Origin: Bilabrum cf. latius
Lineage: Eukaryota
Assembly: GCA_965178125.1 (NCBI GenBank)
Contig: OZ237738.1
Coordinates: forward strand, 620,001 to 684,000
Length of the DNA stretch: 64,000 nucleotides
Direction of reading: 5' to 3'
In this document: positions 4,111 through 31,400 of the stretch, piece by piece
Numbering within the stretch: position 1 is the first letter of the stretch
Layout of the letters: every line of letters starts with the position of its first letter
Program-made: the position numbers and the translations under genes
Notes under the pieces: generated by a model
The model's database searches: none
Told to the model about the DNA's origin: nothing
The model's input: only the letters and a program-made list of their open reading frames with translations

Positions 4111-4613
4111 ATGTGCAAGTGCTCGGCCACCACTAAGGCGTGGACAGGGATTGTTATATCTTGCTTTATAGGCTTTGCTATGCTATTGGCGGCTTCGAGT
4201 GCGGAGAATCGTTGGTAAGACTCGGCCAATCTGCTGTATCTGGACATTGCTCGTTTGTACACCAACTTTGGATGCATGTTTCTTACTCATCGTGCGATTG
4301 CAGGTATCCTATGCTGTTACTCCTAGTTATTCTCGTGCTACCGGCGCCAGTAGTTCTACTCGCCTCCCTTGAGGTAGATCTTGAGCAAACAAAAGGCGTA
4401 AACTAGTATCAGAATTTTGGGGTTTGCTTATTAGGCATGACTGCGGCATTCACAATCGGATTTCCTGTATTTTTGTTCCAGTTTGGCGTGGCGTCAGCCA
4501 CACAGCTTGGCCTAATGCTCGGAGCGCCGCCAGTGATTGGGATCGGAGCCGGGATATCCGCCTAGTGGTTCCCTAAAGTAGATGACGATGAATCAGCGGG
4601 ACTGATGATGTAA
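4111..4613 (+). CDS. VPS55: Vps55/LEPROT-family endosomal membrane protein, 137 aa
   Basis: Exons 4111-4214 and 4304-4613; intron 4215-4303 (GTAAGA...TGCAG). Spliced product ...FIGFAMLLAASSAENRWYPMLLLLVILVLPAP...FGVCLLGMTAAFTIGFPVFL... has the four-TM Vps55 pattern and size. It needs TAG 4404 and TAG 4563 read as sense, and ends at TAA 4611-4613. Confidence 0.75.
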
Positions 4614-4930: not shown

Positions 4931-5656
4931 TCAGTGGTGCTCAGCCTCAGCCCGCTTCTCCGCCAATGTCTTGAAGTGGTGATCGTGGGTGCCGTTAGCA
5001 AGCTCCGGCTGCAAAAAGCAAGTTGGCAACGGGAACGAATCGATCGCGCAGTTGTGTTCAGCATTGCTGGGACGCTTTAAAACCATTCAATTGTGCTAAT
5101 GTCTCACCAGACGGAAGACTGGGCTCTCAAACTCCTCCTGGAAGTTCTCCTTGTAGAACGCGCTGGACTTCACGCGGGATTCGTCTGCGATGGAAGAGAT
5201 GTGCGCTTATAACTAGCAACAGCTGCATACCATGTGAACCAGCAAAAAGAAAAGAAAGCTTGCGCTTGTGCTCACGAGTGGCATCGTTCCCAGGGTTCAA
5301 GGCCATGGACAGCAACACAATCGCAGACCTGCGGGGCATGAACAAGCTTAAAGAAAGACGCTGAAGGTGGGAGGGTTGGGCCAGTTCATCTAAGTACGAC
5401 TAATCGTCTTGTTGCATTTCCGAGACGCTTCCACTTGCGCCTCTGGTGTCAGTAGCGCATGGCTCTGAGCTCCTGACACTTGCGATTCCGCCAGAACTCA
5501 CGCAGCAGAGACGCCAAGTGCTTGGAATCCCTTCATGTGTGCAAAAGTAGCAAAGTGCCTGTACGTTCGGATGCCAACATGCGAAAATAGGCTACCGTTC
5601 ACCATCTTTTCAGCCAAAAGCGCGAATGTCCTTCGCAGCTTGAATCTGCATTTCAT
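4931..5656 (-). CDS. Small 4-exon hypothetical protein (~120 aa), single hydrophobic segment, possibly mitochondrial
   Basis: Exons 5502-5656, 5276-5328, 5108-5184 and 4931-5008. All three introns are GTGAG...GCAG with consistent phases. Product ends ...SAIVLLSMALNPGNDATHESRVKSSAFYKENFQEEFESPVFRLPELANGTHDHHFKTLAEKRAEAEHH-TGA. Start codon uncertain. Confidence 0.6.
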
Positions 5657-5746
5657 GTCGATAGCGTGTATTTAATCTATGGTAGAACGTTCAGCTGAAG
5701 TTCGATCTTGGCACCTCCCGCAGAGCTTCTCATATTCGCTGCCATC

Positions 5747-8700
5747 ATGTCGGCAACCGAAGCAAAACATGCAAGATTTCCAGTAGAAGGGCTTATGCCT
5801 AGAACCGAAACACGAGTGAGGTTTGCCTACGTGCTTGACAGAAAAGATGCCTCCTGGATCGCTCTGGAACGCCCTCCCCATCCGATTCCATTTCGAATCC
5901 TATCCCGCAGGCCGATGAATTCACTCGCGCCAACCCATCATTCGATGGACGCGGTGTAGTAGTTGCTATTTTCGACACTGGAGTGGATCCGGCGGCACTA
6001 GGCTTGCAGAAGTGAGATAGTGGCATTGGGTTCTGCTCCGCGACCGGCGCCTCTGTGGGAACCGTTTTTCTTGTTAGCAAATGGGTTGTACGGTCTAGTT
6101 CAAGTGTTATTTTGAATATATTTGGCGCAGGACTTCGGACGGACGCCCAAAAGTCGTCGATGTGGTGGAGTGCACAGGCTCGGGCGACGTGGCAATGGCC
6201 AAGCCGCAGAAGTCCGTGCCGCAGTCTTCAGGAAGCGGTCGAACGATCAAAGGCATCACTGGTCGCGATCTGCTCCTCAATCCCGAATGGAACAACCCGA
6301 AAGACGAGTGGCGCGTCGGCGCCAAGGTCGTCAAGGAGCTGTACGCCACCACTTTAGACCGACGTATGTCCAGCACAGCGAAGAGCGAGCGCGCCAGGAG
6401 GGTGCAGCGCCTGGTGGGCGAAGCCAAGCGTGCACTGCAGGCATGGGACGCATCCAATCTCGGCGGCAAGCCCTCCTCCACTCTGACAGGCACGAAGAAG
6501 CAGGACAGGGAGGAGCTTCAGGCGCGGGTGGACGCTCTCTCCAAGCTGGACTCTGCGCTGTCCAAGGACGACCCGGGCCCGTGCGTGGACGTCGTGTGCT
6601 GGCACGATGGGGCCGTGTGGAGAGCCGCGGTGGATGCCTCGTTCAGCGGCAACATGCGGAGCTCGCCCGGCCTGGCCAATTTCAGGGTTGAGCGCCAGTA
6701 CGCCACCCTGGACGAGGACTCCCAGCTGTCGTACTGCCTAAATGTGTACGACGACGGCGACGTGGTGTCGATCGTCACGGACGCGGGCTCCCACGGCACG
6801 CACGTCGCCTCTATCACCGCGGGCTGCCACCACGACGCCCCTGAATACGACGGCGTGGCGCCGGGGGCTCAGATCGTCGCGCTGAAGATCGGCGACACTA
6901 GGCTGGGCAGCATGGAGACACTGCAGGGCCTGCAGCGGGCTCTCAGGGCCGTCGTGGACAATGGCTGCGACGTAATCAACATGAGTTACGGCGAGCCCAG
7001 CCTGTGGCCCGACTGGGGCAGGTTTGTGGAGCTGGCCAACGACACCGTCAACGACAAAGGTGTCGTGTTTGTGGCAAGGTGAGAGCTGCTTTTCGTGGAC
7101 TGAGCGCGCGTGCGTCTAAGTGCCTGTGCTCGGCTGTTGTGGGTTTGTGCTTTCACTCTTGCGTCAAAGTGCTGCTTTTGCTGGCTGTGTGCTGCTTGGC
7201 TAGTGTGTATATCGCGGTGGTTATCCTCGCGCTGGCAGTCTCCATTGCGCCGCTGCTGCCCTCTGGGCCCGGCCCTGCCTGCGTGGGGAAGCCTCGCGAA
7301 GATCAATGGGACCTTTACCGGTCCCGACTCGCGTGACGACCTTGATGGGCCACTCCCCGCGCCTTAAGAGGATAATGCGATGAGGACAATCCGCTTGAAA
7401 TTCTCCTGCTCTGCTGCGCTTGTGGTGCTTGCTGCGCCGCCTTTGGCATGGCCGGTTGCCTCATGTTCATTGTTGGTGCGTATTCTAGCGCTGCTTCCGA
7501 TGTGGCTCGCCTTTTCGTCCCGTTTGCCTTGACACTATATTCCCTTGGCCTTTCCGATCCATTCGATCTCACAGCGCCGGCAACAACGGGCCTGCCCTGA
7601 CAACGTCGGGGTCCCCTGGTGCTACCAGCTCGTGCATCATTAGCGTGGCAGCTCTGGTGTCGCCCACCATGGCAGAGGCAGAGTACGGGGCCCGCCGTGG
7701 CACCGCCCTGAAGCCGTACACGTGGTCCTCGAGGGGCCCCACCATGGACGGCGAGCTCGGTGTCACCGTGGGCGCGCCGGGCTCCGCCATTGCAAGCATC
7801 CCGACGTGGAACCTCCAAGGCAAGCAGCAGATGAACGGCACCTCCATGAGCAGCCCGAACATGGCAGGCTGCGTGGCTCTCCTGCTCTCTGCAGCCAAGG
7901 CGTCGGGCCTCTCGTGGACCCCTGCCTCCATCCGACGCTGCATCCAGAACGCCGCCGCGCCCGTGCCCGGCGCCGAGGTGTGGGCCGTGGGCCGGGGCAT
8001 GGTGGACGTCGTTGCGACCTGGGACCTGATGCAGGCCGCTGCAAAGCGGGCCGACGAAGAGGCCCAGCGGGCGCTCCAGGCTGCCCGCACGGACGAGAGC
8101 GACGGCATCGTGCAGTGGGCTGGCATCGCCGAGACTGCCCCGGAGCCTTCTTTCTCCCCGTCCAAGCGAGGGGCGGCGGTGTCGGCCGATCCCGGCCAGA
8201 CAGCCAGCACATCTCCCCCTGCCCCTCCTTCTGGACCTGCGCCTGCCAGCGGGCGGCAAGCCGCGTGGCAGCACGGCCTCACCCGGGAGACGAGGCTGTC
8301 GGTGGACGGCGAGGCGGCCCAGCGAAGGGGCATGGTCACGGGCAAGGGCGAGGACTTCAGCTTTCCCGACATGGTCGTCAGCGTAGGATACCAGGGCGCC
8401 GGTGCTGGTGCGCCGAAGGGAAGGGGCGTCTACTGGCGGGAACCGGCGCAGTCTGCCAGCAGCCAGGAAGTGACGGTTTCGGTGCGTCCGCAGTGGAAGG
8501 CGGGTGTGCACCCGCGGGTGAAGACTGCCTTTGACCGGAAGTACAAGCTGGTCAGCACGGCCGACTGGGTGGAATGCGCCGGCCACCTCCACGTCTCCTC
8601 GAGGGGTGCCAACTTCTCGGCGCGCATCGACGCGGATCAGATCGGCCGGACGGGTGCACACTACGCCGAGATCCGCGGGTTCTGCCTAGCCCACGGCAGC

Positions 8701-11235
8701 GCAGACGAGTGCGAGCAGACGGGACCTGATTTCTTCGTACCGATCACGGTGGTGATTGCGGAGGGCGCCGAGTCGCTGTCACCCAACGGGGTTGACACGG
8801 GCTACACCTTTGTTTCGCAGACCAGGGGTGATGCCACGTCGACCCAGGGGCATCCCGGGCAAGCAGACGCGGCTGCAGCCCGCCCTGCCTCGGGCGCACC
8901 AACCACGATCGCGTTCGGGCCCGGCCATCTGGAGCGCCGGTTCATCCTGGTTCCTCCCGGCGCCTCTTGGTGCGACATCTCGATCAAGAGGGTGGATGCT
9001 GGGTCCGACGAAGACAACCTTGCTGCAGGCACGGCAGATGAAGGCGTGGCGTCCAGCGGCGCTGGCGCCGACGGCGGCAAGGCATCCTTGTTCGGCACGC
9101 CAGGCCGCCGCGCGCAGCTGGGATCCACGCAGGCGTCGATCTTGGACGAGGATGCCCGGTCTGGAGGCGCCCTGGTGACGGCCACTGGCACCGGCAGCGG
9201 CACCGCGTCAGGTGCCGGCGGGGAGTAGCCGGTGGTGGACGCCTCCTCCCGGATCATCGCCGTGCATGCCGTGCAGGTGCGACCGCACGTGTCGCTGCAC
9301 CAGTCAGGCAAGGAGCGCTACATGAGGCTGCGGCCCGGGGAGGAGAACAGCATGGGCATGGGTGTGGTGGCGGGCCTCACGCTGGAGGTGTGCGTGGGCC
9401 AGTACTGGAGCAGCCTAGGCTCTAGCGGGCTGCAGGTCCAGGTGCGGTTCCGCGGCGTGAGCGTGCAGGGCTCGGGCACGTTCTCCTCCGGGTCTGGAAT
9501 GCTGCACCTCAGGCCGCAGCCACTGATGCACGACGTGCTGGTAAAGCCAGAGGCAAAGCTCACCCATTGGCACATGGCTGTACCCCCCAGCAAGTTCGTG
9601 GCCGAGGCCATGGGCGAGCGGGATACCCACACGGACGGTGCTCGGCTGTCTCGACTCGAGGTCAGGTACGAGGTGACTGCGCCGGCGTCGGGGTCTTTCG
9701 TGCCTCGTGTGGGCGGGTTGCACGGAGGCAGGCTGCTGTACGAGGCACCTTTCGACTCGCACCTGGTCGTGGCGCACGAGGCAGACACCGGCAAGATCAT
9801 CGGCACTTCGGACGCGAAGGGGGACGCGATCTCCCTGTCGTCGGGCACCAAGTACGTGTTCCGGGTGCAGGCCGTCCTTCCCAAGGCGTCCGATCTGGAG
9901 CAGCTGAAGACGCAGCCTCTTTATCTGATGCACAAGCTGTCGAGCGCCATCACTCTCAAGGCGCACGGGTGCAAGGGAGACGCACTGACCGGCGGGAGCG
10001 GCTACTCGATGCGCAAGCTCCGCCGGTACGTGCAGGATGATGTTTTCTTCGGGCTGCCTGCCTCGTCAAAGCTGCCTAAGAAGGCCAAGGCTGGGGATTA
10101 TCTCTCTGGCAACGTCCAGTTCTGCGACTACGAGAGCGCTGCCGGTGCGCTGAACAAGGGCAGGCACCCCAGCGGCGAGCAGAGCATCGCGTTCTACCTG
10201 GGGCCGTCGGAAACTCCCAAGGAGGCATCCGCCGAGCTGCCTGCCGTACCGAAGGCCTCGGGCGGCAGCAAACCTGCCTCCTCGGAGGCGTCGTCGTCGA
10301 GTGGGGGAGCAGCAGCGTCCGGTGCTGGCAGCGACGGGGACGCAGGTTCGAGCCCCGATGCAACGGAAAAGGAGGTGGCGGAGGCTGTGCGCGACGCGTC
10401 CGTGAGTGCTCTCAAGAAGCTCAAGTCGCGCGCCGCATTTGACCTGCTCCACGATGCGCTGCTGAAGGAGCACCCGGAGCACCTGCCGCTGCTGCAGGCC
10501 CGGCTTGACTTCGAGGTTGATGCGCTGCGCAAGGAGGACCCCCAGGGCACCGGGCTTGACGTGGCGTCCGTGCGAGTGGCCGTGGCGGCTGACGCGGTGG
10601 TGGCTGCGTGCAACCCCGACGAGCTGGCGGCGTACTTCGGCCGCAAGGTGTACGAGGACGAGCTGGAGGGCGACGAGCTCAAGAGGCACAAGGACATGGT
10701 CAGCAAGAAGAAAGACCTGGTCAAGGCTCTGAGCGCGAAGGCGAGCGCGTTTGTGAGGTGCGTGCCTGCACTGGCTCGGGCTGGCAAGGAGTCCAGCGCT
10801 GCGGAACTCCCGGCCGCTGCTCGCTCTGTGCTTGCGACCAGCGGCAAAGCGGACGGGGGCGCGGGTGCGACTGCCGGGGGCAATGCAGCATAGGAGGCCG
10901 AGAACAACGCGGTTGCTGAGGCGTTTGGTGATGCCGTGCGGGAGCTTGGCGTGTGGAAGGACTTGTCGGGGTCAGACAAGAAGGGAGAGCTGGCGGTGCT
11001 GCTGGCCGAGAGGCACGTGAGGGCGGGCCGGCCCGCGAAGGCCCTCATGCTCGTCCACGGCTGCATCGATGACGGAGCAGCTGCTTCCTTCGAGCACCTC
11101 GGCGGGACTGCGGCCGCAAGGTCGTGCCGCGCTGCTCTGGTTGCTGCGCTCGGCTGGGACGTCTTCAGTGAGTCCATCGAGCGAGCTGAGGCTGGTTTGC
11201 GCGCGCACAAGGCCCAGTGCGCTGCACCCCTTTGA
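5747..11235 (+). CDS. TPP2: Tripeptidyl-peptidase II (subtilase S8), ~1592 aa
   Basis: Exons 5747-5815, 5911-6011, 6131-7078 and 7575-11235. Motifs [16 protein letters not shown] (Asp), HGTHVA (His), SAGNNGP (across the splice junction) and [12 protein letters not shown] (Ser). In-frame TAG at 9226 and 10891; ends TGA. Confidence 0.95.
7079..7574 (+). other. TPP2 intron 3 (496 bp, unusually long for this window)
   Basis: GTGAGA...TCACAG; splicing restores FVAS/AGNNGP. The other introns in the window are about 70-175 bp. Confidence 0.9.
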
Positions 11236-11665
11236 TCGCGTGGTGCAGTAGCTGGTGCAGCTAATGGTCCGCACAGCATGAGGACATCTCGGCGATGCAT
11301 CGATACGATCAAATTCATGCATCAGAGTTGTGCAATTCACTCCAAGCGATTGCTGCTAGGCCTATACAGTCAAGTGTTTGTTTTGCAGTGGAGCGAATCT
11401 CAGGCTGTACTCATCACCCCAATCAAGCATGTCTCGAGTGTTTCCAGCCCACTTCACAAGGCGATCAGGTGTCAATGAACCAATGAACCCTGAGATTTAA
11501 CAATATCCCAGTACTTACTATCCCGCTGGGCATCGCTGGTGTTGCTTCAGCGCTTACTGCCAGTCGCGAGCTCGAGAGCAAGGACTCAGTACAAGCAAGT
11601 GCTCTGTTCAACCTGGGCCGTCGCTAGCCCGGTCCTGCCTGGTATCCGTCCTCTCATACTTGAAA

Positions 11666-14600
11666 ATGGAGATTGGAGATATACAGTACGCCGAAATCGA
11701 TACAGAAGACGCCCGGGGAGCCGCTGTAGTTGCACCTCAGACCGGCCTGAGCAAGCGCCGCTCCCTCAGGCGACGACGGTCGCGTGCTCGATCCCCGATG
11801 GTGCCAATCGTCATCCCAAGCGCTAGCAAAAAATTAGAATAGAGCAGTTCAGAGCCGTAGGATATTATCCGGTCCGTCCAGCCAGCGGAGGGTGCAGAGG
11901 CACGGTCGAGTTCGAATGGCAACGCGAGCAGCGCTTCCGATGCAGCCGGTGGCCAACTGGGAGATCTTGCGAGCCAATCCCACGTTAATATGATACTTCC
12001 AGAGAGCCCGAGAGAAAACATATCAGCCGAGTGGGGTGGCGAGGTGGTGAGGTAGGATGGCCTGGGCAGTGCCGCGGACGGCCAGGGTGCCACACTGCCA
12101 GCAGACATCGTCGATCTTGAGAGGTAGAGACGAAAGGAAATTGCCGAATTTCAAGCGGTGGTTTAGGCTCGCCTGCCAGGTCACCGGCATTCGCCGGCGC
12201 GTGCGACGAAGCCGGCGGCCCGATCGGCTCGGGGATATGCAGCTCAGTCCGATTTGAGAGCCTTGCGAGCCGGCGGCCGGCAGGTCGCCAGAACGTTTGG
12301 GGCTGCGGAGGAGCTAAGCGCAGCGATGGATGGATTCGGTGGGGCAAGCCGAGCAGCGTCATCCTCGGCGGTGCCCGCCGCTGCAGGCAGAATCCTCGGC
12401 GCACGGCAGGCGAGCAGAGGCACGGGCAGAGGCAGACGAGGAAGAGGCGCTGCGGATCAGCCAGGTAGCCAGATTGCAGGGGCCACCTCTCGATTGCGCT
12501 CCGCCGACGATTTCGACCTGGCGCTAGGCTCTGCTCCAAGTAGCAAGGCAAGGCAGCCAGCGCGGCCGAAAGGGCGGTCGCCCGCAAGGGCCACCAAGCC
12601 TGGATATGATGCTGATGCTGCCACTGGTACTCGTACTACGCACGACTTGAAATTTGATTCTCTAGCAGGAACTGCATTCGAGAGCAACGCTAAGAACGGC
12701 ACGAAAATGGGTGCAACCGGGCGGCTTGATATGGAGGCAGAGGTCCGTGGGCCCTCTGATGGCGGTGCTGACGACTCTGGTACCGATGCTGATGATTATT
12801 TAGGGGCTGGTGGTCGACGCGGTAGCAGCGTTGGGCTGGTAGCTCCTGTTGAAGGGGCGAGAGCATCGCGAAGCCAGCGTGGCGGATCCATCGAGCAACC
12901 TGGTACGGAGGACACTGGCGCCAAGAGCGCTTCCGCATCCGATGGCGAGGTTCGCCTGGACCTGGACTCGCCGTCTCAAGAGGATGAGATGCATGCACTC
13001 AGCCCGGCGTGTCGCCCCGCTGCACGACAGAAAGGCGAACGCACAAACTCGCAGCAAGCCCAGGCCACAGGATTTGACGCCGACTCGACAGAACGCCTGA
13101 TTGACGACCTCTTCCAAGCAGCACCATCCTAGATGCAGGTGGCGGCACAGCCAGCAGGGTTGTCCTCTAGGCATGATACGGCCTCGCCAAAGCTTGCAGA
13201 GGCCCGTGCTGGCCAGCGCAGGAAGCGTGCGCCTGAAGATGGCGGTGACCTGAGCGAGATGGCAGAGTTCTCGGCCGGTGGGGGAAGCAGCCGATCCAAG
13301 AAGCGCAGGCGGCAGTCCAAGCTTGCCCCCGCAGGAGAAACAAGCTCGCGGAAGGCATCGGCCGCGCGGTAGCAAGGTGGGCCCAGCAGTATCCTGGACG
13401 GCGAGTCGAATGCAAGGTCCGGTGGCAACACTGCCTCGCGACGATCGTCGAAGCAGCCGTCGTCCGCTGGGGAGCTGCCGCGCACCTCGATTCTGGAAGG
13501 TGAAGGCGCACCCTCGAAGGCAAGGCCAATCATGTCCATGCAGGCGTTCCTGCAGAAGAGGCACGCGGGCGTGCTTCCTAGCCGAGTGCCAGCCAGGCAG
13601 CAGCAGCCCTCGAAGCAAACTGCCACGCTAGATCACAGAGGCACCAACGCACTGTCAAAGACTCCCACCAAGTCCGCGGCTGCTCGAGCCCGAGGTGCAG
13701 CTGCATCCAGGCGGCTGCCGACCAGGATTGACGCGGCTCTGATGGCTGCCGCCAGTGTGGCGCAAGGATTCTCCGTGAATGCCATCCTGCGAGGCAGCGG
13801 ATCGTCTCTGTCGTCCACGCCGACAAGCGCTACCACTGCCTCGCAGCGGCCCGGTCAGCAACACCAGCCTCCTTCCCGCCATGCAGCTGCTGCCGGCGCG
13901 TAGACTCGCGAAGCCGAGACCCTGCCACCGATGCTCGCTGCACATGCACAGCTGCAGGCACGCATGCACCGCGACCAGTCGCGGGCTGCGGACCACGGAG
14001 GGGGTGCCATCACGACCACCCAGATGCTGCCTGCCACGCTGCGAGCCGCAATCGAGAGGGCCCGCGGGTCGCGTGCTGAGGCATCACAAGGGGCATTCGC
14101 AGCGGGCGGCAAGCTGCCCATTGCCTCCATGAAGACCGGGGCATCCCTCTCGTCACCAACGCAAGCCAGCGCGGCAATCGCGCCAAGCGGAGAGTCGTCC
14201 AATGCTGAAACGAGCGGGGTGCAGCTGGCAGCCCTTGCGGTAGAGCAGGGCTAGGCCAACGACCATTCGAAGTCCAACGGGTACTGGCAGCAGCAGCGCG
14301 GAGAAGCCGGCCAGCACCAGCACCACGTCGCAGTGGGTGGGTCGTCCGTCAGAGGCAACTCCGGGTCGCCTACCCGGAGGCTTGCGCGCGGGAAACAGGC
14401 AAAGGCAGGTCCGCTGGTGGCGATGCTGGCGAGGTGCTGGCGGCAGACAGCCCAGGATGCCGCACTACTGGACCACTACCACATGCAGCACGGCGCGCGC
14501 AAGCACCCGTCTCCCACTACCGGCTTGGCTCCCTCCTTCTCTTCGTCGTCAGCTTCGTCTGCTTCAGGTGCCGCCGGATCGCCTGTCCTAAAGGAGACCC

Positions 14601-15439
14601 GAGCCCCGCAGCATCGACCGTGGGTTGTGCTGGAGGCGATCGATTCGCGGTGCGTCGGGCCTCACGCATGGGTGCGGTGCTTGCTGCGAGCCACGTCAGA
14701 CGACGACGGCAAGCTGAAGCGCTCTAGTGTCGGGGGGCAACATGGGCGCGAAGGAGCCGATCGTAGCGGGGCGGGAGAGGCTGGGGAGGAGGAAGACTTG
14801 CTGCAGAGCATGTTGGATCAGGAAGACGCTACAGGTGGTGGGAGTAAGAGCCCGCTGGGTCTGAGGCTGACAGCCGAAACGCACGACGCGGAGCGATTGC
14901 CCGCAGCGGCAGCAACAGCACCGACGGCAGCGGCCCGCCCAACAGCTCCCACCGAGCCTGCAAGCTCGTGCATGGCACGCGGTCTGACCCCAAAGATCGT
15001 CGGGCTGGCAGCGGGGCAGGAGGTGGTGGCCCTGTTCGGGGCATCGCGCTGGAGCTGGCTGTGCAGCGCGGGGAGGGCGCCTGCCTGGCTCCGAGCAGGT
15101 ACTCGAGGGGAGGATGCTCGCTCCAGGGGATCTGGATTTCAAGCTAAATCGGTGGCGGTGAATGTGAGCGGTGCGATGGATGGCGATGGAGAGGGGAGGT
15201 GGAGGGAGCGGGCTGGGTTCTGCGTGAGGGTGCACGGCCCGTTCTCCGTGCTGACCAAGGGCTCAGAAGAGGGGGGCGGGGGACAGAACTCTCTCAAGCG
15301 AGTGGGCGCTGCCGATCCCGGGGGGGCGGCAGGAGCATCATCTCGGTCCAAGGGAGTCGGTAGGGAGGAGCGGCGCGGGCTGCCGGTCCTACTGTCGACC
15401 GCGATGAGTGTGGCTGTCAGGACGACGGTGTGCCTATGA
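11666..15439 (+). CDS. Hypothetical 1257-aa single-exon protein, mostly low complexity; C-terminus weakly SPIDR-like
   Basis: One frame from ATG 11666 to TGA 15437, interrupted only by 9 TAGs (11840, 11858, 12053, 12125, 12164, 13130, 13370, 13901, 14252). Six ORF-track fragments fall in this frame. Confidence 0.75.
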
Positions 15440-15819
15440 GCCGAACTGGGTATTGGCATCCGTCGTCACCAATGTATTTCCGTGTCATTTCATACCCACT
15501 ATCATTTCCTGGCATGGAAATAGGAATACCAAGAGAGGCCGGTTCCCCAGATGAGTGCGGTTGCAACCGCATCGAACCGCTTTGTCTCTATTTCTGCTAG
15601 CACTTGGCATTTTTTGCCGGATACGGAACGGCATTATATTGTTATTTGTAATACAAATAAGTTGACACTGCGTTTACAAGGTGAGTACTGCTCTGCCTGG
15701 GTTTCGAGAGGTGAATCGATGCTGCTAAATATGACATGATCGCTCTGGGGCCCTTCAGATTGTCCTTCATGTGCATGTTTGGCTTCTTTAGAATAGAATT
15801 ATCAATTATTATCATCGGG

Positions 15820-18800
15820 ATGGCTCAAAGTTGGCCGAATACGTCGCGATAGGCCGCATAGAGGATCGGCAGGGGCACCCGGCTGCGAAAACTGTGACGT
15901 AATTTTGCGCTCGTCACACTCTTCAGTTGCTGTTGCAGTTGGACTTCTTACCCTTCTACGCAGGCGAGAGATAGGAATGGAGCTTGATTAGGGATCGAAT
16001 GGTATGGACTTGATTCAAGCTCTGGAGCACACTGGGCTCTCGTTGTCCCGTGGCCATGCGACGCTGATATTTAGCTCACCAAGGCGCATCTGCAACATCC
16101 TGTTTGAGTGGTGCTGTAGGAACTGTATCACGCAAAATCCGGTTCCATTATCGTCTGAAATGCTCCAGTATGCCGCCAGAGTGCGTGAACTGGTCACAAA
16201 CTACACCAACGAGAAGTTACGAGCAGCGCTGCAAGCATAGTTGCAGAGCCCACAGCATGCTTCATCCGGACAGAATCGAGACCAACACCCAGAAAGCACC
16301 GAATTCCAAGGCGCTACATTTGCACATGCGCACGAGGCTGCGCGAGCAGTGTCCTTCCCTGCATTACCAGACCCGCCTGTGATGCCAGACCTCTGTGCGA
16401 TGGGTGTGCGTTGCATCTCCTGCGGTGCCCCCGCGAACGTATCTGGCCGCTGGATCACATCCACTAGACGCACAATGCGAAGAGTTAGACGCATGGTCAA
16501 GCCTGGTGCCAGAGTAAGCAGCAGCAGCGCGCCAGTGGCTGGCAGTGGTGCAGCTACCAGCGAAACCGTCGCCGGCAGTACAAAGACCGGCCAGGCGCCC
16601 GATTCACAGCCCATGTCAGACGGTGCTGACAGCGGAACCGGTGCCGCGACAGCCGCAGAGAGCGATGGTAGCACAGCCCCGATGTCCGACGAGGGCATCC
16701 AGGGAGAGCGCTGGAGGGGCGCTGGCAGCAGCAGCGCGGCAGGAAGCAGCGTCGCCGCGCAAGCCTCCAGGGCCGGCTCCGCAAGAGCTGTACGCCCCCT
16801 CGTCTCGGAGCTCCGTGACTTGCTACCGCTGACCCTGCCGCGCACGCTGGATCCCAACGCTGTCGCTCCCCCTGGGCTCGGTACCACAGGCGTACTCGAT
16901 TTCGGCACCGATGCCACGGAGGTCGACCCGTCGAGCAGTCTGGCAAAGGTGGCGAGGCGACAGGCGCTGGCCGTTGCCACGCAGACGATGGTTTCCTCAT
17001 CCGGAAGCGTGGATCGAGCGGATGCTATGGCGCGAGGGGTGGGCAGCTCCTCTACAGCCAACGGGACTGACGGCGGGGCAGCCAGCCGGCGGGGCAGCAG
17101 CGGTGCGAGCGACGTGGGGGACAACGACCGACGCCTGGGCGACGATCGGGATCGAATGCCTGCCGATGCACCTAGTGTGATCGCGAGGGCCTCCTAGAGC
17201 GGTCCAGTGAAGGACCTGGAGTCGTAGGGGGCGGCAAGCGCGCCTCGCAGCGTGGCTGGCTCGGTGAGGTCTTCGAAGGGCTCTGCCAGGTCTGCATCGT
17301 CAGTGTCTGCGGCAGATGATGACGATGATGAGAACGACGAAGACAGTGAAACCGATTTTAATGATAAAAAAGCAGGCGGCGAGGCCGGCAGCGCCAGTGG
17401 TGCCGCTCAAGCGAGGGCCTTGCTGGCTCCAGGGGGGTCGGTGCCTATGGAGGATGGGGAAGACGCCCGACTGAGGAGAGGAGACAGCGACGCGTTTCCA
17501 TCCAGAGCGTCTGAAACGAGCAGGCCTGGGGTCGATCGGCCCGCCAGTCCGGCAGCAGCCACAGCCGGGACGCACGTCAGCGGACCCCGTGATTTGGAGG
17601 ACAGGGACCCTCTGGAGGCGGACGACGAGTCGCTGTGGCACGTGATCGACGAGGGCCTGCCGCGCTGCGACGTGGCAGAGCAGGGCGACTCTTGGATACA
17701 GCGCTGGGCTTCGCGCGGCGGCGCGGGCTCCTGGTTTGATGGCGTGAATGGCGGCAGGAGAAGGGCCTCGGCGGAGCTCGAGCTGGACTCGGCCGGGCTG
17801 GAGGGCGACAAGTCGCAGAACCAGTACGGCCTGCAGGCCATCGTGGAAGCGCCCCCTGCCCCTTTGAGACCCGACCCAGTGGCAGCTCGTGCCATTTCAG
17901 AGATACGATCCAACAATAGGAGGCGCTGGACGGGCAGACACGGGAGGTTCTCCTCGACCTCTGCCGGCTTCCAACCGGTGGTGGCCCTCGGTTACGACAG
18001 CCGCATGCTGCTGCACGACGAGATTCCCAAGAGGAAGCGACCTCTTGTTGATGGCATGCCCGTCCCGCCGATTGCCCCTCACCCAGAGAGGTCTGATCGG
18101 CTGCGGGGCATTGCCGGCCACTTGGCCGCCACTGGGCTGTGGCAGCGGTGCTGGAGGGTGCCCACCCGCTAGGCTCGCAGAGAGGAGTGCGAGCTGGTCC
18201 ACACGTCGTCGCACATGGACCAGGTGGAGAGCCTGCGGGAGGTGGGCGACGCCGGCTCGAGCCTGACTCAGGACACGTTCGCCAGCAAGCACACGCTCAT
18301 GGCTGCGAGGCTGGCATGCGGGACGGTGCTGGCCGCCACGGAGGCCGTCTGCCGAGGCCACGCCGACTCTGGCCTCGCGGTCGTGAGACCGCCGGGTCAC
18401 CACGCCGAGCCGGACGTGGCAATGGGATTCTGTCTTTTGAACAACGCAGCGGTGGCAGCAGCAGTGGCAAAACGGGACTGGGGCGCCCGCCGCGTGCTTC
18501 TGCTAGACTGGGACGTGCACCACGGCAACGGCACGCAGGCCATATTCGACTCTGACCCAGACGTTATGTACGTGTCAGTGCACCGGCACGACGACGGCAA
18601 ATTCTACCCTGGCACCGGGGCTGCACAGGACATTGGAGAGGGCGAAGGTATCGGCAGGACCGTGAACGTGCCTTGGCCCGGGGGTGGCATGGGCGACTTG
18701 GAGTACACGGCTGCGTTCGAGCGGCTCATCATGCCGGTAGCGCGGGAGTTTGCTCCCGACCTTGTGATCGTGTCTGCCGGTTTTGACGCAGCGGAAGGCG

Positions 18801-21406
18801 ACCCCTTGGGTGGCTGCGCGGTGACTCCTGCAGGTTACGCACACATGACCTCGATGCTGATGCAGCTCGCCGGTGGCCGCATCGTGCTTGCTCTCGAAGG
18901 CGGGTACAACGTGCGTTGCATCGCGCGATCCACGGAGGCTTGCCTCCGTGTGCTGCTGGGTGGCTCCCCGCCCCCGCTGCCTTCGCCGGAGCAGGCAAAG
19001 GCGAAGTCTCTCTCAGCCTCAAGGCTTGGGCTGGGCAAGCTTGGCATCCCGCCTGGCCTGGAGGATTCGGCGCACGCCCTGGCCGTCATCCAGCGTGCAA
19101 GAGAGCAAGGACACGACGTGCAACTGCAGAAGGCAAATTCGGACGACGAGGACGACGACGACAATGAGGCAAGCCGAGGGCAACGCCGTGACGTTAAAGC
19201 TCTGCAGGCCGAAGAGCAGGCCGTGAGGGCGGGCGGCTCGCATGGCGACACAGCTGCTGGGTAGATCGAAACCGACCGACACACGTCTTCTGCTGCGGGA
19301 TCGGATGCCATTAGCCGGCCGGCAGAGGGTGCTGAAGCCAGAAGCAATCCTGCCGCAGGGATGATGTCGGGCGCTATTTCGCAACGGGGCAGTGACGATG
19401 AGTACAGCGGGCACAGCGACTCCATGTCTGGCTCCGTGCAGGCATCCGAGCTGGTTGCTCTCGTCCCGGGCGCGGCACAAGCCATTGAAGCCGCCACCCA
19501 GGCGCTCCGGCCTCACTGGCACTGCCTCGGCGCCCTGGTGGCGCAGGGCGAGAGCGTGGCAGCGACAGCGTTCCGGCGAAGCATCAAGCAGCGGCTGCAA
19601 AAGCTGGCGAGCCGGTACTAGTCAGAGCAGCAGCACCGGGGTTCAGCTGTGGGAGGGGGCAAGCCTGTCGCCATTCCGGGCTGGGGGGCTGCTGCCACTG
19701 CCATGAGTGCTTACGTGGGGCAGTAGCCAGGTCTCTTCGGGGCGGGTTCGATGTCTCCAGGCAGGCTGCCCAGCTTCGATTCCGCGCAGCCGCGGAGCGC
19801 GGGGACAACCGGGGGTGCTTCTCTGGAGCAGCCAAGCATCAACTCCGTGGGTGCCGTCGGAGCTCACGACGATCAGCAGGTCGGGCTCGGGGGCCGGTCC
19901 GAGCGGAGGCTCTCTGCAGCTGATTCCATCGGAATGGTGACGCCTGGGGACGGCACGCAGGAACTGCTCCCCTCTAGGAGCAGTCGTGGCGGGTCGGGTG
20001 GGTCGGGTGGCCTGCAGCAAGCGGAACCGTTCGTGCCTGGCCATGCAACCAGCGGAGAGATCCCGCTGGGGACTGTGCCGCACACTAGCCGCCCGAGCAG
20101 CAGCGAGCAGCTGACACCCCGGAGCCCATGGGCAGCTGGCGTGGGAGAATCTCCCACCAATGGCAGGCCGAATGAAGTGCCGGCTTCGGCTGCTGCCGCC
20201 GTGCAGGCGGCCCAGTTGCAGAGTCTCAGTCCAGCCATGCAATTCCACCACGAGCACATGGTGTCGCCATCCTCGGGCGGTCTGCAGCAGCCGGTGATAG
20301 CAGCGGGCCAGAGCCTGACCGGTGTGGCCAACGGAGGTGCAGGAATCGCGGGCGGCGCGCTGGCTGCTGGGCTGCCAAATGGCAGCTCCTCGACTGCTGG
20401 TGGAGCTGGTGGCAGCGCTGGCATGAGCGCGCCTGCTGGCACTGTGGCTGGGCACTGTTCGTCTTCGAATGCATCCGCGGGTGTGCCACAAGGCAGTGCA
20501 CCGATGACCATGGGTCTCGGCTTGAGCCACGGAATGCACAGCGTGCCCATTGGTGGCCTCTTGCATCACCGTATCGGTGGGCCGCAGCGTGGCGGGAAGG
20601 CATACCTCCCGGTAGCACTCCCTGTCCCCAGGCAAGCCATCATGGTGCCCCTCTCGGAGGTGGAGAAGATCATCGACATGGTCCTGGGCGACCCCGACGA
20701 GGTCGGTCCGCTGTCTAGTGCGCTGAGCCAGGGCGGCGCAGATACATCCAGCGAGCTAGAGTCGATGAGACCCGTGCCTGGTGACGGTGACGAGCCTGTC
20801 ACTGGCGATGTCGGCGGGGCGCTCACCCCCACCACGGCGCACGGCAGGGGGTTTGGCTCCTCGAGTGCTGGGGCCATGGGCTCCGTAGATGAGTCTAGAA
20901 GTGACAGCCGCGGGGACGGTGAAGCGGCTGAGCCCGTCGGGGCTGAAGCCACCGATCCTACTGGGGATTCGCAGGCTCGCTCCTCGGCAGGGGCACAGGC
21001 TGGGGAAGGGGCAGGGGCAGAGGCAGGGGAAGGTGGTCCTCCCCACGGCACGCACCAGCTGCAGCACGGTGTTCAGGGCTCTTCGCACTCTGTTGGGAGC
21101 TCTCTGCCGGGGTCCCCTGGCTTGCGGGGGCTGGGCGGCGCTGCCGGCGAGGAGCTTGTCCGGTCTGGCGAGCTGTCTCCAGTGCGGCTGGGCGAGAAGA
21201 GAAGCAGGCCAGTGCCAGGAGGAGACGTTGGCAGGGGCTCTGAACCAGGGAACATCGCGAGGGGCCTTCTCCGGGCTTCCGCGGAGGAGGTTTCTGAACG
21301 AGGTCCTACCGCGGGAGACGGACAGAATTCCACCGGGACGGGTGGCACCATCGAGGCGGGGCCAGGCGCTGGGCAATCCGACAGCAAGCGGCCACGGGTG
21401 GAATGA
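15820..21406 (+). CDS. Class II histone deacetylase with long disordered N- and C-terminal extensions (~1840 aa)
   Basis: Motifs HPERSDRL, RPPGHHAE..AMGFCLLNN, LDWDVHHGNGTQ, SAGFDAAEGDPLGG and LEGGY. One frame 15964-21406 with TAGs only; ends TGA. Putative first exon 15820-15893 plus intron 15894-15963 is less certain (alternative ATG 15977). Confidence 0.9.
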
Positions 21407-21617: not shown

Positions 21618-24600
21618 ATGAATGGCCCCGAAGTCCCTGTTGGCTCCTTACCGCCGCAGTGTAGATTAATAGACTATTTCGCTGTGCTTAGCAGGAAAGC
21701 AAACGGTTAGAAGCCTTGCGTTCTGCTGTAGTTGACTGATCCACGAGCTGCCTGAACCGTTGCAAATGCTCTTCGGTAATTGCGTCCCGCAGATGATGGC
21801 CCAGGGAGGCTGCTGGAACGAATACCGAGATGGGACCATAAAGATGCCGAATTTTCGCCGCAAGCTACATTAGTGAGCAGCTAGTGCCAAACAATGAGTG
21901 CAGACCACCAATGGACTGGTGTATCGCAGATTCCCCTACATTACAACCTAGCCGCAATTTCGCAGTTCTGCTTCCCACCAGTATCCCCTTGCCCTGACGA
22001 ACCGCACTTCTATGCTATTCGCTTGACGGATGGTGAATACAGGCAAGCATACGCGTGCTGCTTAGCATTCACTGATGCAGGCTCGGCTCTCAGAACAGTG
22101 TCTGGGCATGCGAATAAATCTTTTGAAGCCTAGAATAGTGATCTTGCTGACCATTAGAAGATTCAAGCTCCTTCAGTGCTTCCTGCGGCTGAATTCAAGT
22201 CAGGCCTCGATACGAAGGTATTGATGCTGATAAGCCGGCTCCCTCTCTTTTCTGTTTGGGAGACGCTTCTGCGGGCCATCCTGAGGACTTATTCTGGAAG
22301 GTTCGAACTAGATATCATGTCGGCGTACACACCAGCAGGATGGCTCTTGCCTAGCTGGGCGCCACCAGGCGAGGGCGAGTCGCATGGACGCCCCGCTGCC
22401 AGGCCACGAGCGAACGCAGAAACGTCTGCATCGCGCGCTGGGCTGCCTGCTGGCCTTGATCGGATCGAAGAGAGCTCTCAAGATCGTAGCAGGTCCACGG
22501 AAGGCCGCAGTCCCACCGAGTCAGGCACGCCTTCCCTGTCCTCCCGCGGTACCAGCGGCGCCCATGGTGCCAGCAACGGACTCGAACACTCCAAGGGGCG
22601 TGACAGCCCTTCGCAGTTCGCTTCAGAGGGGCTGCAGCCGTTACATTAGCGTAGCAGCGCTGCCTACGATTCCTCCGGGGAGCAGTCCGTCGCGTCATCA
22701 GCAAGCGAGGGGGCGGACAGCAGTGAGTCCGGGCCGCACCACGGGCAGCATGCAGGTGGCAAGGATAGCATGATGGAACAAGTTCCAAGTTTGGTGGAAC
22801 TCGGGGATGAGGCAGCTTAGAGGTTCCACGTGCAGCAAGTCCTGGAAAGTGTGGAGAACGAACGGTCGAGGCGGTTGCGTCGATGGTCGAGGCGGCTTTC
22901 CCAGCTCTCGAATCGAGACGATGACGGCAAGGCTAGTGGTGTGGCGAGAGGCGGGACTGAGGGGGAGCTGACCGAGCGGTTGGCGGGGGATTCAATCGAT
23001 GGTAGCAGTGAAGAAGAGGATCAGGATGGCCTCGGCGTCGCGATTGGTAGTAACGCTGGGTTGAGACCTTCCCCCCCCGGGTCATCGCTTCAGTAGGCGA
23101 GCAGTCCAACTGGCGCCTAGTCCTCGCAGATTGAGCCGCGCCTGTCGACTCGCCGCCGAGAGTCCACCATCGGTCCGCTTGTCAGTCTAGGTGCCGGTCG
23201 AAACCGAGAGCTACCAGGCCTGCTTCATTCTAGGTCACGTGGAAGCATAGACAGCAGGGCGTCCTCTGGTGCCCCGCCTAAACGGATGCTGCGGCGAGCA
23301 GACAGCGGGGCTGGTAGCACTGCTGGTGGTGCCTACACTAGCATTGCATCAAGCGCTTACGGAGGCGACTACGAAGATGAGGACGATATGACTTCTATAG
23401 GCGGTGGTGAGAGCGTGGCTCGACCGGGCAGGAGGCATTCACGAAGGTCTGTAGTACAGTAGTAGCAGCCAGTTCCTGCTGACGGTGTCTTTGCAGAAGA
23501 GGATGATGACATCACGGATAGCATCACGGTAGCAAGCACCACTCGCCCACCAGGAATTCCAGGACCCCCGCCCCGACCGCCCAAGCTGAATGCCATGCGA
23601 GCTTCCAAGGGTTGGAGCCAGAGCTCCAGACTCGTTGGTTCCAGACGGCCGGTGGTGCATGCTGCCGGCAAGGTACCCATCCGTGCGAGGTCGCAAGCTG
23701 ACCTTAAAGCTGCAGCAATTGGTATCAAGCTTAACATTTCTGACGACTAGCTTGCAATACCGTCAGTTGGAAGCAACAGCCGCAGTGGCAGCGGCAGCGG
23801 AGATGCTAGCGGTGACGGGAGCGAAGCTGATCAAACAGGAGTCGATGACACGGCTGAGCTGTCCGACGTCGATGCAGCTAATGGTGCCGATGAAGCCTCA
23901 TCTACCAATTCAAAGCATCGCAACCAAAGCGAGCTGCAGGCCATCATTAGGCGAGATCCTGTCTTATCGCGAATTGCTGCCGAGGAATCGCTGAGCCTCG
24001 TGCCACGCTGCCTTCTCAGACTGAGGCCAGCACCCCCAATCTTGGATGCAATAACGGTGGCTACTGCTGCTGGAGGGCCATTTGATGCCCTTGAGCCTGG
24101 AGATGGATCTGCCATGCCAACGGACCACCGGCTCGCCGACGAGCACCAGGACGCCTCCGGAACTCAGCCCCTGCTGCTCGGGCTTGGCACCCCACCGCAC
24201 CCGCCTGGAATACGACGATCGCGCGTTGGATCCGGCTCTAGCTCTCGCTCTCTGCTGAATGCCAGCAATGCATACGTCAGCAAAGAGGGATCGGTGTACG
24301 ACGCCGGGTAGATAAGTCGCCGCCACAGTGTGAGAGCCAGGACGCAGAGTGTTGCCGCTGAAGAGCTGGAACTGGTTGATCAGTCCAATGAGGCCAACCC
24401 CAAAGCTGTTCGAACCCAGACGGTTCAATCTGATACTGATTTCGCTGAGATGGATGAGGAGACTGCAATGCAGCCCGTGACAAGACGTGCAGCCGCTGGG
24501 TATTCGGGAGCGGGCCCTAGCCGGCTCCTGGTGTCGTTCGCAGGATGCTACTCGGTCGTGCAGTCATTGTTTCGAGATGCGCAGAGCGACCAAGCCGGAA

Positions 24601-30600: not shown

Positions 30601-31400
30601 GAGCTAGCTCAGTTTCAGGTGCAGGAGTGGGTGCACGCGGTGTGCGGCTTGCGTGGTCTTCGAGTGAGGCTCTGTCAGCTCTCTGGGACGAAATACTGGT
30701 ACAGATGGAGTGCATACAGAGATGTGTGGCAATCCTCGAGAAGGTTCACGAATCAGGTCGCAAATCAGGTGGTTCATACCCGGATAGTCGAGGCGTAGTT
30801 GCACTGGGACAGCGTGCCAGTCCACCAGCGAGGAGAGGCATGCGGTCGGCAACATCGAGGGAGACGCCGGAGCGAGGCTCGAGCTTGGCTGCAACAACAA
30901 ATCATGCGGCTCCACCAACCGTACCTGACAAGCAGCGCCGCCAGCCCAAGCAGCTTGTCCTTACCAATGGGGAAGCGGTTGCCCCAGGGCGACAAGCAGG
31001 CTAGGCTACCAACGGACAGATTGCGAGCATCGAGCCAGCTCTGCAGCTTGAAGACCTCGCCACGGGCCATTCCATGAGCTAGTGGAATCGAGGGGATGCC
31101 CGTATGGTCCCGCCAGAGTTAGCGAGACGAGGCACGCGAGTACCGAACGACCGTAATGCAAGTAATCTGGTGGTCGGAGGGAATAGGAATGGCTGCGCGA
31201 GGCAAGATGCGTCTCAACCGTTTGGTCGCGGTCCAGCAGGACTAGATGCTGCAGGCAAGACTGCCGGGCACTCGACCGCGCGAGTTGGCTCAAAAAGGGG
31301 TCACAAGAAGACTGAGGGTATGGCAGTGTCGAGCCAAGAAGCAGCCGCTGCCAGAAAGAAGCGGCTGCTGCAGAACCTCAGACGGTCTGGGTCTACCTGA
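21618..31400 (+). CDS. Giant DENN-domain protein (Rab GEF family), ~3200 aa, with C-terminal coiled coil
   Basis: Exons 21618-21705, 21793-21872 and 21966-31400. uDENN: LIDYFAVL...FCFP...LTDGEYRQAYACCL. cDENN: LF*CLSPE...ILTEQRTVLFS...LMYPFQW...APFPVFAGVH. dDENN: EVRMAFLECMVSLM...FLREF. The 9.4-kb last exon has ~29 in-frame TAGs and no TAA/TGA until the terminal TGA. Confidence 0.9.

What the first reader, a model, noticed from the sequence alone, without database searches (positions are those of the whole stretch)
4111..4613. UAA remains a stop while UAG is recoded: a split UAR pair
Seen: Vps55 reads through TAG twice and ends at TAA 4611 at the expected family length. The WDR27-like gene also ends at TAA, and the other complete genes end at TGA. 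No in-frame TAA was found. Known: eukaryotic reassignments usually move UAA and UAG together (table 6). UAG-only cases are rare, e.g. Iotanema spirale (Gln), an uncultured rhizarian (Leu) and some ciliates. Inference: a table-15-like code needing an eRF1 that rejects UAG but accepts UAA/UGA, plus a tRNA with a CUA anticodon.
Basis: partly seen in the sequence, partly recalled or inferred. Interest (0 to 1): 0.85.

Follow-up and report, generated by a model that had tools for sequence, protein, structure and literature searches.

The report
TAG is sense, TAA still stops
In this GC-rich protist nuclear DNA the codon TAG is read as an amino acid (probably glutamine) while TAA and TGA still end genes, a rare split of the TAA/TAG pair seen before only in a few unrelated protists.

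Summary
Vps55-like gene: exon 1 4111-4214, intron 4215-4303, exon 2 4304-4613. It has in-frame TAGs at 4404 and 4563 and ends at TAA 4611. A spliced RNA contig identical to the window keeps both TAGs.

Across the window, releasing TAG raises the longest ORF from 694 to 3206 aa. Releasing TAA changes nothing. Eleven coding ORFs (17,408 codons) hold 103 in-frame TAG and 0 TAA. If TAA were synonymous with TAG, 18-45 TAA would be expected.

Of 11 gene ends, 9 are TGA, 2 TAA and 0 TAG. TAA as a stop therefore rests on only two genes plus its complete absence in frame.

The amino acid is probably Gln. TAG sites lie in Gln-rich context like real Gln codons. Aligned homologues show polar residues, never a conserved Leu, Tyr or Trp. 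This stays uncertain.

A one-gene CHD tree places the organism among stramenopiles. I found no such code change in print for them. All described UAG-only codes use mainly UAA as stop; here TGA dominates.

Verdict: a new member of a known kind.

The parts
4111..4214 (+). Vps55-like gene, exon 1 (ATG at 4111; last two bases start a split TGG codon)
   Evidence: RNA contig X5 record 9 covers 4109-4213
4215..4303 (+). GT..AG intron, 89 nt
   Evidence: joint 4213->4303 (cut +1), GT..AG, in RNA contig of run X5
4304..4613 (+). Vps55-like gene, exon 2, 102 codons plus stop
   Evidence: Pfam PF04133 E=1.6e-4, 22.0 bits, cut-off 24.6; homologues P0001 (68% identity over 53 residues) and P0002 (35% over 94)
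4404..4406 (+). first in-frame TAG, in the loop before the third hydrophobic segment
   Evidence: kept in RNA; aligns with Ala in P0001 and P0002
4563..4565 (+). second in-frame TAG, 16 codons before the TAA
   Evidence: kept in RNA; aligns with Asp in P0002, and similarity goes on for six residues after it
4611..4613 (+). TAA, end of the Vps55-like reading frame; next in-frame TGA is 5 codons later
   Evidence: the RNA contig continues to 4800
34391..37732 (-). WD40 gene, 1113 codons with 8 in-frame TAG; ends TAG (34394-34396) then TAA (34391-34393); next in-frame TGA is 12 codons later
5693..11340 (+). tripeptidyl-peptidase II gene: exons 5693-5815, 5911-6011, 6131-7078, 7575-11235; 2 in-frame TAG (9226, 10891); stop TGA 11233-11235
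11501..15439 (+). unknown protein ORF, 9 in-frame TAG, stop TGA 15437-15439
   Evidence: RNA contigs 11466-13124 and 13098-15171 with no differences in run X5
15740..21406 (+). class II histone deacetylase gene ORF (intron 15679-15961 upstream of the main exon); 8 TAG inside RNA contig 15962-21445; stop TGA 21404-21406
21780..31400 (+). DENN-domain protein ORF, 3206 codons, 30 in-frame TAG, stop TGA
38607..40742 (+). metallo-beta-lactamase-fold protein ORF, 2 TAG, stop TGA
41385..50102 (+). unknown protein ORF, 2905 codons, 15 TAG, stop TGA
50942..56092 (+). CLU-domain/TPR protein ORF, 14 TAG, ends TGA (true end not verified)
57648..63998 (+). CHD chromodomain helicase ORF, 8 TAG in the ORF (7 after the first ATG), runs off the window
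4931..5536 (-). small spliced gene (80 codons, 3 introns), no TAG, stop TGA 4931-4933
   Evidence: joints in runs X5, X6, X7

Best explanation
The window is nuclear DNA of a GC-rich protist, stramenopile-like by one gene tree. Its cytoplasmic translation reads UAG as an amino acid, most likely glutamine. UGA (the main stop) and UAA (a minor stop) still end translation. The UAA/UAG pair is therefore split, as in NCBI table 15.

Shown here:
- TAG is frequent and evenly spread inside long, expressed reading frames.
- TAA and TGA never occur inside them.
- Every gene end seen is TGA or TAA.

Inferred, not shown:
- A dedicated tRNA with anticodon CUA pairs with UAG but not UAA. It would probably derive from tRNA-Gln(CUG) by one anticodon change.
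- The eRF1 has lost or weakened recognition of UAG while keeping UAA and UGA.

Both TAA-ended genes have a TAG 1 and 16 codons upstream. At least the WD40 end may be an old TAG stop that is now read through to the next stop.
For: (1) Longest ORF: 694 aa under the standard stops; 3206 aa with TAG released; still 694 aa with TAA released instead. Total length in ORFs of 500 aa or more goes 3,978 -> 19,591 -> 3,978 aa.

(2) 103 TAG, 0 TAA and 0 TGA in 17,408 in-frame codons of 11 ORFs. A-ending share of CAR, GAR, AAR and TTR codons is 0.26, 0.31, 0.19 and 0.15. A synonymous TAA would therefore be expected 18-45 times (my arithmetic). The other two frames hold 43 and 58 TAA.

(3) With TGA as the only stop, the 10 sense ORFs of 600 codons or more gain only 8-126 codons. 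Every TAA in them lies in the first 114 codons (upstream side) or, in WD40, 12 codons from the end. The TAGs are spread along the whole length.

(4) The ORFs are real genes by Pfam: TPPII, Hist_deacetyl (E=3e-95), DENN, SNF2/Helicase_C/Chromo, TPR_12.

(5) Spliced RNA contigs from three runs of two studies match the window. Run X5 shows no other letters. They carry 20-21 of the TAG codons unchanged: Vps55 2, TPPII 2, unknown protein 9, HDAC 7-8.

(6) Gene ends: 9 TGA, 2 TAA, 0 TAG of 11.

(7) Gln: 6.7% of residues within 4 positions of a TAG are Gln. The figure is 7.2% around true Gln and 4.1% in the background. A neighbour-composition classifier ranks Q first by 4.8 ln units. Sets of 96 true-Q sites are called Q in 81% of 300 draws; sets of any other residue in at most 3%.

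(8) At the two CHD TAG columns the homologues carry D/E/S/N/H/K (21 rows) and K/S/A/R/L/E/D/Q and others (33 rows). The Vps55 columns carry A, A and D.
Against: TAA as a stop rests on two genes only. In both, a TGA follows in frame within 5 and 12 codons, so the protein ends barely differ between the readings.

Both TAA ends have a TAG shortly upstream. The window cannot exclude that TAG itself still terminates there.

Only 11 gene ends were seen. Splicing after the stop was checked by RNA for only four of them: Vps55, TPPII, HDAC and the small minus-strand gene.

The Gln call is not robust. Leaving out the TAG sites of one gene (the 2905-codon ORF) makes Y, V, Q, H and L nearly equal. The context signal could also reflect the mutational origin of TAG from CAG rather than its meaning.

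Summed BLOSUM62 scores over six aligned columns put D, A, E and S above Q. All six columns are variable.

No tRNA gene and no eRF1 gene could be examined.
Confidence: 0.8

Rival explanations
1. Ambiguous code: TAG is sense inside genes but still terminates near the 3' end of some mRNAs. This would resemble the context-dependent codes of Condylostoma, karyorelict ciliates or Blastocrithidia. The TAAs behind it would then be back-up stops or untranslated.
For: Both TAA-ended genes have a TAG 1 codon (WD40) and 16 codons (Vps55) before the TAA. None of the seven long TGA-ended ORFs has a TAG within 97 codons of its end. Ending Vps55 at the second TAG would still fit the Pfam profile length.
Against: Similarity between the Vps55-like protein and P0002 continues past the second TAG. 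The 3' untranslated parts are not minimal: RNA contigs run at least 187 nt past the Vps55 TAA and 105 nt past the TPPII TGA. The described ambiguous codes go with very short 3' UTRs (recalled, not checked here). No gene end in the window requires TAG as its stop (0 of 11).
Confidence: 0.08
2. Both TAA and TAG are sense (table-6-like) and TGA is the only stop. TAA would just be very rare because the genome is GC-rich.
For: Both TAA-ended frames reach a TGA within 5 and 12 codons. 9 of 11 ends are TGA.
Against: 0 TAA against 103 TAG in frame, where A-ending partners make up 15-31% of comparable codon pairs. The only two in-frame TAAs downstream of a start lie within the last 13 codons of their TGA-delimited frames (Vps55). 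By my arithmetic the chance of that for two random codons is about (11 x 13 / 17,408)^2, or 7e-5.
Confidence: 0.03
3. The split code is right, but TAG stands for another polar residue, Glu being the best alternative, and not Gln.
For: Homologues at one CHD column are mostly D/E (13 of 21). The second Vps55 TAG aligns with D. E ranks above Q in the summed BLOSUM62 score of six columns. GAG is one base from TAG, and one TPR repeat has GAG where another has TAG. UAG=Glu is on record in a ciliate (PMC10553269; search listing and start of abstract only).
Against: The context classifier puts E 8.7 ln units below Q. Sets of true E sites are called Q in 0.3% of 300 draws. Gln, not Glu or Asp, is the residue enriched around TAG (6.7% against a 4.1% background; Glu 6.6% against 5.6%).
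Confidence: 0.2
4. There is no dedicated suppressor tRNA. UAG would be read by a near-cognate tRNA (for example tRNA-Gln CUG) because eRF1 no longer recognises UAG.
For: None from this window; no tRNA gene is present. Panek et al. note that the decoding tRNAs remain unknown for most variant nuclear codes (PMC5304391, section 9).
Against: TAG makes up 0.59% of codons, including sites in enzymes and helicases. That calls for efficient decoding. Suppressor tRNA genes were found in two of the ciliate genomes with UAG=Leu (PMC11687900, abstract).
Confidence: 0.1

Closest known systems
Iotanema spirale (Fornicata): UAG = Gln, UAA and UGA stops (Panek et al. 2017, PMC5304391; abstract and sections 6 and 9 read)
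   Same: UAG alone is reassigned and UAA is kept as a stop. The likely residue is Gln. The same mechanism is predicted: tRNA-Gln with anticodon CUA plus an altered eRF1.
   Different: There UAA is the primary stop; here TGA is (9 of 11 ends) and TAA is the rarest (2 of 11). This genome is about 60% GC. The lineage is unrelated (metamonad there, stramenopile-like here). The Iotanema evidence came from a transcriptome with many conserved alignment columns; here the residue is only weakly determined.
Rhizarian exLh (Sainouroidea): UAG = Leu (same paper)
   Same: UAG is sense in all cases and never a stop. Ends are only UAA or UGA. Fewer UAG codons occur in highly expressed genes; here the strongly covered 80-codon gene has none.
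   Different: There, UAG sits at conserved Leu positions (82 of 86 hyperconserved sites) and stops are 56 UAA to 15 UGA. Here the aligned columns are polar, Leu scores poorly, and TGA dominates.
Phyllopharyngean ciliates: UAG = Leu (three TARA genomes) or Gln (Hartmannula sinica, Trochilia petrani) (McGowan et al. 2024, PMC11687900; abstract and section 10 read)
   Same: UAG-only reassignment with UAA kept as a stop. If TAG is Gln here, it makes up 12.7% of Gln codons (103 of 814), near the 18.5% reported for H. sinica.
   Different: In those ciliates UAA ends 92-98% of genes and UGA is the rarest stop. Here the order is reversed, and the organism is not a ciliate.
NCBI translation table 15 (TAG = Gln; the translate tool labels it 'Blepharisma nuclei; some phages')
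   Same: Same codon table, if the residue is Gln.
   Different: That table is a formal code, not a lineage, and membership depends on the untested residue.

Membership tests
UAG-only stop-to-sense nuclear code (UAA and UGA kept as stops) | Many in-frame UAG codons inside genes that are otherwise intact and expressed | tested here: met
   103 TAG in 17,408 codons of 11 ORFs. Pfam domains span them. 20-21 TAGs are seen unchanged in RNA contigs.
UAG-only stop-to-sense nuclear code (UAA and UGA kept as stops) | No in-frame UAA (or UGA) inside coding sequence | tested here: met
   0 TAA where 18-45 would be expected. TGA-only ORFs add only short end pieces.
UAG-only stop-to-sense nuclear code (UAA and UGA kept as stops) | True gene ends are UAA or UGA, never UAG | tested here: inconclusive
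   9 TGA, 2 TAA and 0 TAG of 11 ends. The sample is small. Both TAA ends have a TAG 1 or 16 codons upstream, and no homologue fixes the C-terminus firmly.
UAG-only stop-to-sense nuclear code (UAA and UGA kept as stops) | A tRNA that reads UAG but not UAA (anticodon CUA) | not testable with these tools
   0 tRNA genes in the window; no genome is held.
UAG-only stop-to-sense nuclear code (UAA and UGA kept as stops) | eRF1 N-domain changed at the sites that read the third stop-codon base (GTS, NIKS, YxCxxxF, position 69) | not testable with these tools
   No eRF1 gene among the ORFs scanned.
NCBI table 15 (UAG = Gln) | UAG stands for glutamine | tested here: inconclusive
   Context classifier: Q is first by 4.8 ln units, with false Q calls in at most 3% of draws. 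The call is lost when one gene's sites are left out. Six aligned columns are polar but do not single out Q.
Vps55 / LEPROT family (Pfam PF04133) | Score at or above the Pfam gathering cut-off | tested here: not met
   Exon 2 alone scores 22.0 bits against a cut-off of 24.6, E=1.6e-4, matching profile positions 26-107 of 120. Exon 1 alone gives no hit. The joined protein was not submitted. Treat it as Vps55-like.

The most novel reading that the evidence does not exclude
This would be the first nuclear genetic-code change in a stramenopile, and the first UAG-only reassignment in a GC-rich genome where UGA, not UAA, is the main stop. Before the change, UAG would not have been a rare stop in such a genome. 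The change therefore could not have come from UAG simply fading out under AT pressure. That points to a route through an ambiguous intermediate. The TAG-TAA tandem at the WD40 end looks like a leftover of that route.
Probability: 0.45. Interest if true: 0.78.

Novelty: new member of a known kind. Interest (0 to 1): 0.62.

Why it matters
Splits of the UAA/UAG pair are rare. The papers read here list one rhizarian, one fornicate and a few phyllopharyngean ciliates, all with UAA as the dominant stop.

A further, independent case in a GC-rich, TGA-terminating genome would do two things. It would widen the conditions under which eRF1 can be made to drop UAG alone. It would also test ideas on how stop codons get reassigned (codon capture versus an ambiguous intermediate).

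There is a practical side too. Any standard-code annotation of this genome truncates most long genes. Here 10 of the 11 ORFs counted contain TAG; the separate 80-codon gene has none.

Tried and rejected
- Whole genome: none is held. No genome-wide tally, tRNA search or eRF1 search was possible.
- Earlier notes of this scan: none found.
- tRNA and Rfam scans of the window: 0 hits.
- A 15-nt GT..AG mini-intron that would remove the first Vps55 TAG: rejected. The RNA contig is continuous over 4303-4800.
- RNA editing of TAG: rejected for the covered genes. Run X5 shows 0 other letters; the single difference, in run X7 at 12663, is not at a TAG.
- Runs on record as RNA: no RNA holder was listed. 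X5-X7 are taken as RNA only because their contigs are spliced.
- Close relatives for decoding TAG:
  - The non-TPR part of the CLU/TPR protein found nothing at near or shorter lengths.
  - A HMMER search of 1.84 billion representatives with Vps55 exon 2 gave only 2 hits.
  - A metagenome scan with the HDAC region gave 80 loci at 37-60% identity and no close relative. They served only for one variable column.
- PDB alignments: HDAC and TPPII align at variable positions or in insertions. DENN aligns once with Val and once in a gap. The CHD chromodomain region found nothing.
- The TPR tandem array: the TAG copy stands where other copies have CAC/CAT, GAC, TAC or GAG, which does not decode it.
- Pfam on six further ORFs or exons: 0 families. 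One search failed because one reference held stops.
- ESM Atlas: not used.
- The full 121-row tree did not finish. A FastTree run was made on 44 rows instead: WINDOW, the 28 rows that carry a source name, and 15 unnamed rows that I picked. The other 77 unnamed rows were left out.
- Supplementary files of the two papers, including the eRF1 alignments, were not seen.

Full report
**1. The gene in the finding**

The sequence at 4111-4613 is a two-exon gene.
- Exon 1 is 4111-4214. A GT..AG intron of 89 nt spans 4215-4303. Exon 2 is 4304-4613.
- Exon 2 has TAG at 4404-4406 and 4563-4565, and its frame ends at TAA 4611-4613.
- A 603-nt contig of run X5 lies on 4109-4213 and 4303-4800 with no other letters and no gaps.
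- That contig confirms the intron and shows both TAGs in the mature RNA. It excludes editing. It also excludes removal of a possible 15-nt GT..AG piece around the first TAG.

Exon 2 alone matches Pfam Vps55 (PF04133) at E=1.6e-4 and 22.0 bits. This is under the curated cut-off of 24.6. Residues 1-80 match profile positions 26-107 of 120. Exon 1 alone gives no hit. I therefore call the gene Vps55-like.

A HMMER search of 1.84 billion representative proteins found only two relatives:
- P0001: 64 aa, 68% identical over 53 residues.
- P0002: 137 aa, 35% identical over 94 residues.

The first TAG aligns with Ala in both. The second aligns with Asp in P0002, and the similarity continues for six residues behind it. 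That continued similarity is the best sign that the second TAG is read through.

**2. TAG is a sense codon throughout the window**

| Stop set | Longest ORF | Total in ORFs of 500 aa or more |
|---|---|---|
| Standard | 694 aa | 3,978 aa |
| TAG released | 3206 aa | 19,591 aa |
| TAA released instead | 694 aa | 3,978 aa |

The long frames are real genes: tripeptidyl-peptidase II, a class II histone deacetylase (E=3e-95), a DENN protein, a CLU/TPR protein and a CHD helicase.

Contigs of runs X5, X6 and X7 (two studies) carry GT..AG joints. They must therefore derive from RNA, although they are not on record as RNA. They agree with the window and cover 20-21 TAG codons unchanged.

**3. TAA is not a sense codon**

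- In 17,408 codons of 11 ORFs there are 103 TAG and no TAA. The ORFs were cut at TAA and TGA, so the zero alone is by construction.
- The test is therefore what happens with TGA as the only stop. The ten sense ORFs of 600 codons or more then grow by only 8-126 codons.
- Every added TAA lies in the first 114 codons, upstream of the start, or 12 codons from the end of the WD40 gene. The TAGs are spread over the full lengths.
- A-ending codons make up 15-31% of the CAR, GAR, AAR and TTR pairs. A TAA synonymous with TAG should therefore appear 18-45 times (my arithmetic).
- The other two frames of the same DNA hold 43 and 58 TAA.

**4. Gene ends**

Eleven ends were seen.
- Nine are TGA: the small minus-strand gene (4931), TPPII (11233), the unknown protein (15437), HDAC (21404), DENN (31398), the ORF at 32571, the MBL-fold protein (40740), the 2905-codon ORF (50100) and CLU/TPR (56090).
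- Two are TAA: Vps55-like (4611) and WD40 (34391).
- None is TAG.
- The ends at 32571 and 56090 are uncertain as true ends.
- RNA contigs run unspliced across the stop for Vps55, TPPII and HDAC. The spliced contigs of the small minus-strand gene place its stop in the last exon.

TAA as a working stop thus rests on two genes. In both, a TGA follows within 5 or 12 codons.

Against the idea that TAA is a very rare sense codon: the only two in-frame TAAs lie within the last 13 codons of their frames. For random codons the chance of that is about 7e-5 (my arithmetic).

Both TAA ends have a TAG just upstream, 1 and 16 codons away. The seven long TGA-ended ORFs have none within 97 codons. This fits old TAG stops now read through to the next stop, at least for WD40. 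It also leaves a small chance that TAG still terminates near 3' ends.

**5. Which amino acid**

No tRNA or eRF1 gene is in the window and no genome is held.

*Context evidence*
- 6.7% of residues within four positions of a TAG are Gln. Around true Gln the figure is 7.2%; the background is 4.1%.
- A naive-Bayes classifier on neighbour composition ranks Q first, 4.8 ln units ahead of H.
- In 300 draws each, sets of 96 true-Q sites are called Q 81% of the time. Sets of any other residue are called Q at most 3% of the time.

*Weak points of the context evidence*
- Without the 15 sites of one gene the ranking becomes flat.
- TAG codons born from CAG would sit in Gln-rich context whatever they mean.

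*Alignment evidence*
- Two CHD columns: D/E/S/N/H/K in 21 rows, and K/S/A/R/L/E/D/Q and others in 33 rows.
- Two Vps55 columns: A, A and D.
- One HDAC column, variable: A 21, P 13, E 11 and others, over 78 loci.
- One DENN column: V.
- Sources.

These columns are variable and mostly polar or small (the DENN column is Val). They score poorly for Leu, Tyr, Phe and Trp, but do not separate Gln from Glu, Asp, Ala or Ser. I put Gln at about 0.65 and Glu at about 0.1-0.2.

**6. Who it is**

The best CHD hits are oomycetes, thraustochytrids (Hondaea, Mucochytrium) and diatoms.

A FastTree tree of 44 rows places the window's CHD inside a clade with 97% local support. The named members of that clade are all stramenopiles. 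The window is sister to an unnamed environmental protein, P0005 (99% local support), and lies outside the named oomycete, thraustochytrid and diatom groups. The 44 rows were the window, 28 named rows and 15 unnamed rows that I picked; 77 unnamed rows were left out.

This is one gene and a quick method, so it is a lead only.

**7. Comparison with what is known**

UAG-only reassignment with UAA kept as a stop is described for:
- the rhizarian exLh (Leu) and Iotanema spirale (Gln) (PMC5304391; abstract and sections 6 and 9 read);
- phyllopharyngean ciliates (Leu or Gln) (PMC11687900; abstract and section 10 read).

In all of these UAA is the main stop: 56 UAA to 15 UGA in exLh, and 92-98% UAA in the ciliates. 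Here TGA is the main stop and TAA the rare one, in DNA of about 60% GC.

Five full-text searches listed no nuclear UAG reassignment in a stramenopile or labyrinthulomycete. That holds only for the library searched.

**8. Verdict**

The tRNA and eRF1 mechanism is inferred from the literature, not tested. The case is a new member of a known kind of code. Its unusual setting (GC-rich, TGA-dominant, stramenopile-like) makes it worth a genome-wide follow-up.

Noticed in passing
window 34391-34396 (minus strand): The WD40 gene ends with TAG directly followed by TAA. Both TAA-ended genes have a TAG within 16 codons upstream of the TAA, whereas the seven long TGA-ended ORFs have none within 97 codons. 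This may be a trace of former TAG stops.
   Followed up: partly
window 4931-5604 (minus strand): A small gene of 80 codons with three GT..AG introns (5009-5107, 5185-5275, 5329-5501), seen spliced in three runs. It has no Pfam match for its pieces, no TAG, and a TGA stop. It converges on the Vps55-like gene, whose RNA contig reaches 4800.
   Followed up: partly
window 55023-56089: A tandem array of 8.4 copies of a 126-nt unit (82% matches) encodes kinesin-light-chain-type TPR repeats. One copy has TAG where the others have CAC/CAT, GAC, TAC or GAG. The frame ends at TGA in mid-repeat, so a further exon cannot be excluded.
   Followed up: partly
window 31433-31822 and 33435-33640: Two direct repeat pieces of 87 and 90 nt (97% and 92% identical), about 1.8-2.0 kb apart, flank a possible 207-codon minus-strand gene (32571-33194, one TAG, TGA stop, no Pfam family).
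   Followed up: no
window 57648-63998; proteins P0005, P0011: In a 44-row FastTree tree the CHD helicase groups with stramenopile sequences. It is sister to an unnamed environmental protein (P0005) and not inside the oomycetes, thraustochytrids or diatoms.
   Followed up: partly
window 18506-18540 and 20986-21033: Short GC-rich low-complexity stretches (one a 24-nt tandem repeat) recur in several other contigs of the source run. In the read-laying output they cause false joints and depth peaks.
   Followed up: no
window 4001-6000: GC falls to 0.51 here against about 0.6 elsewhere. This is the stretch holding the two small intron-rich genes.
   Followed up: no
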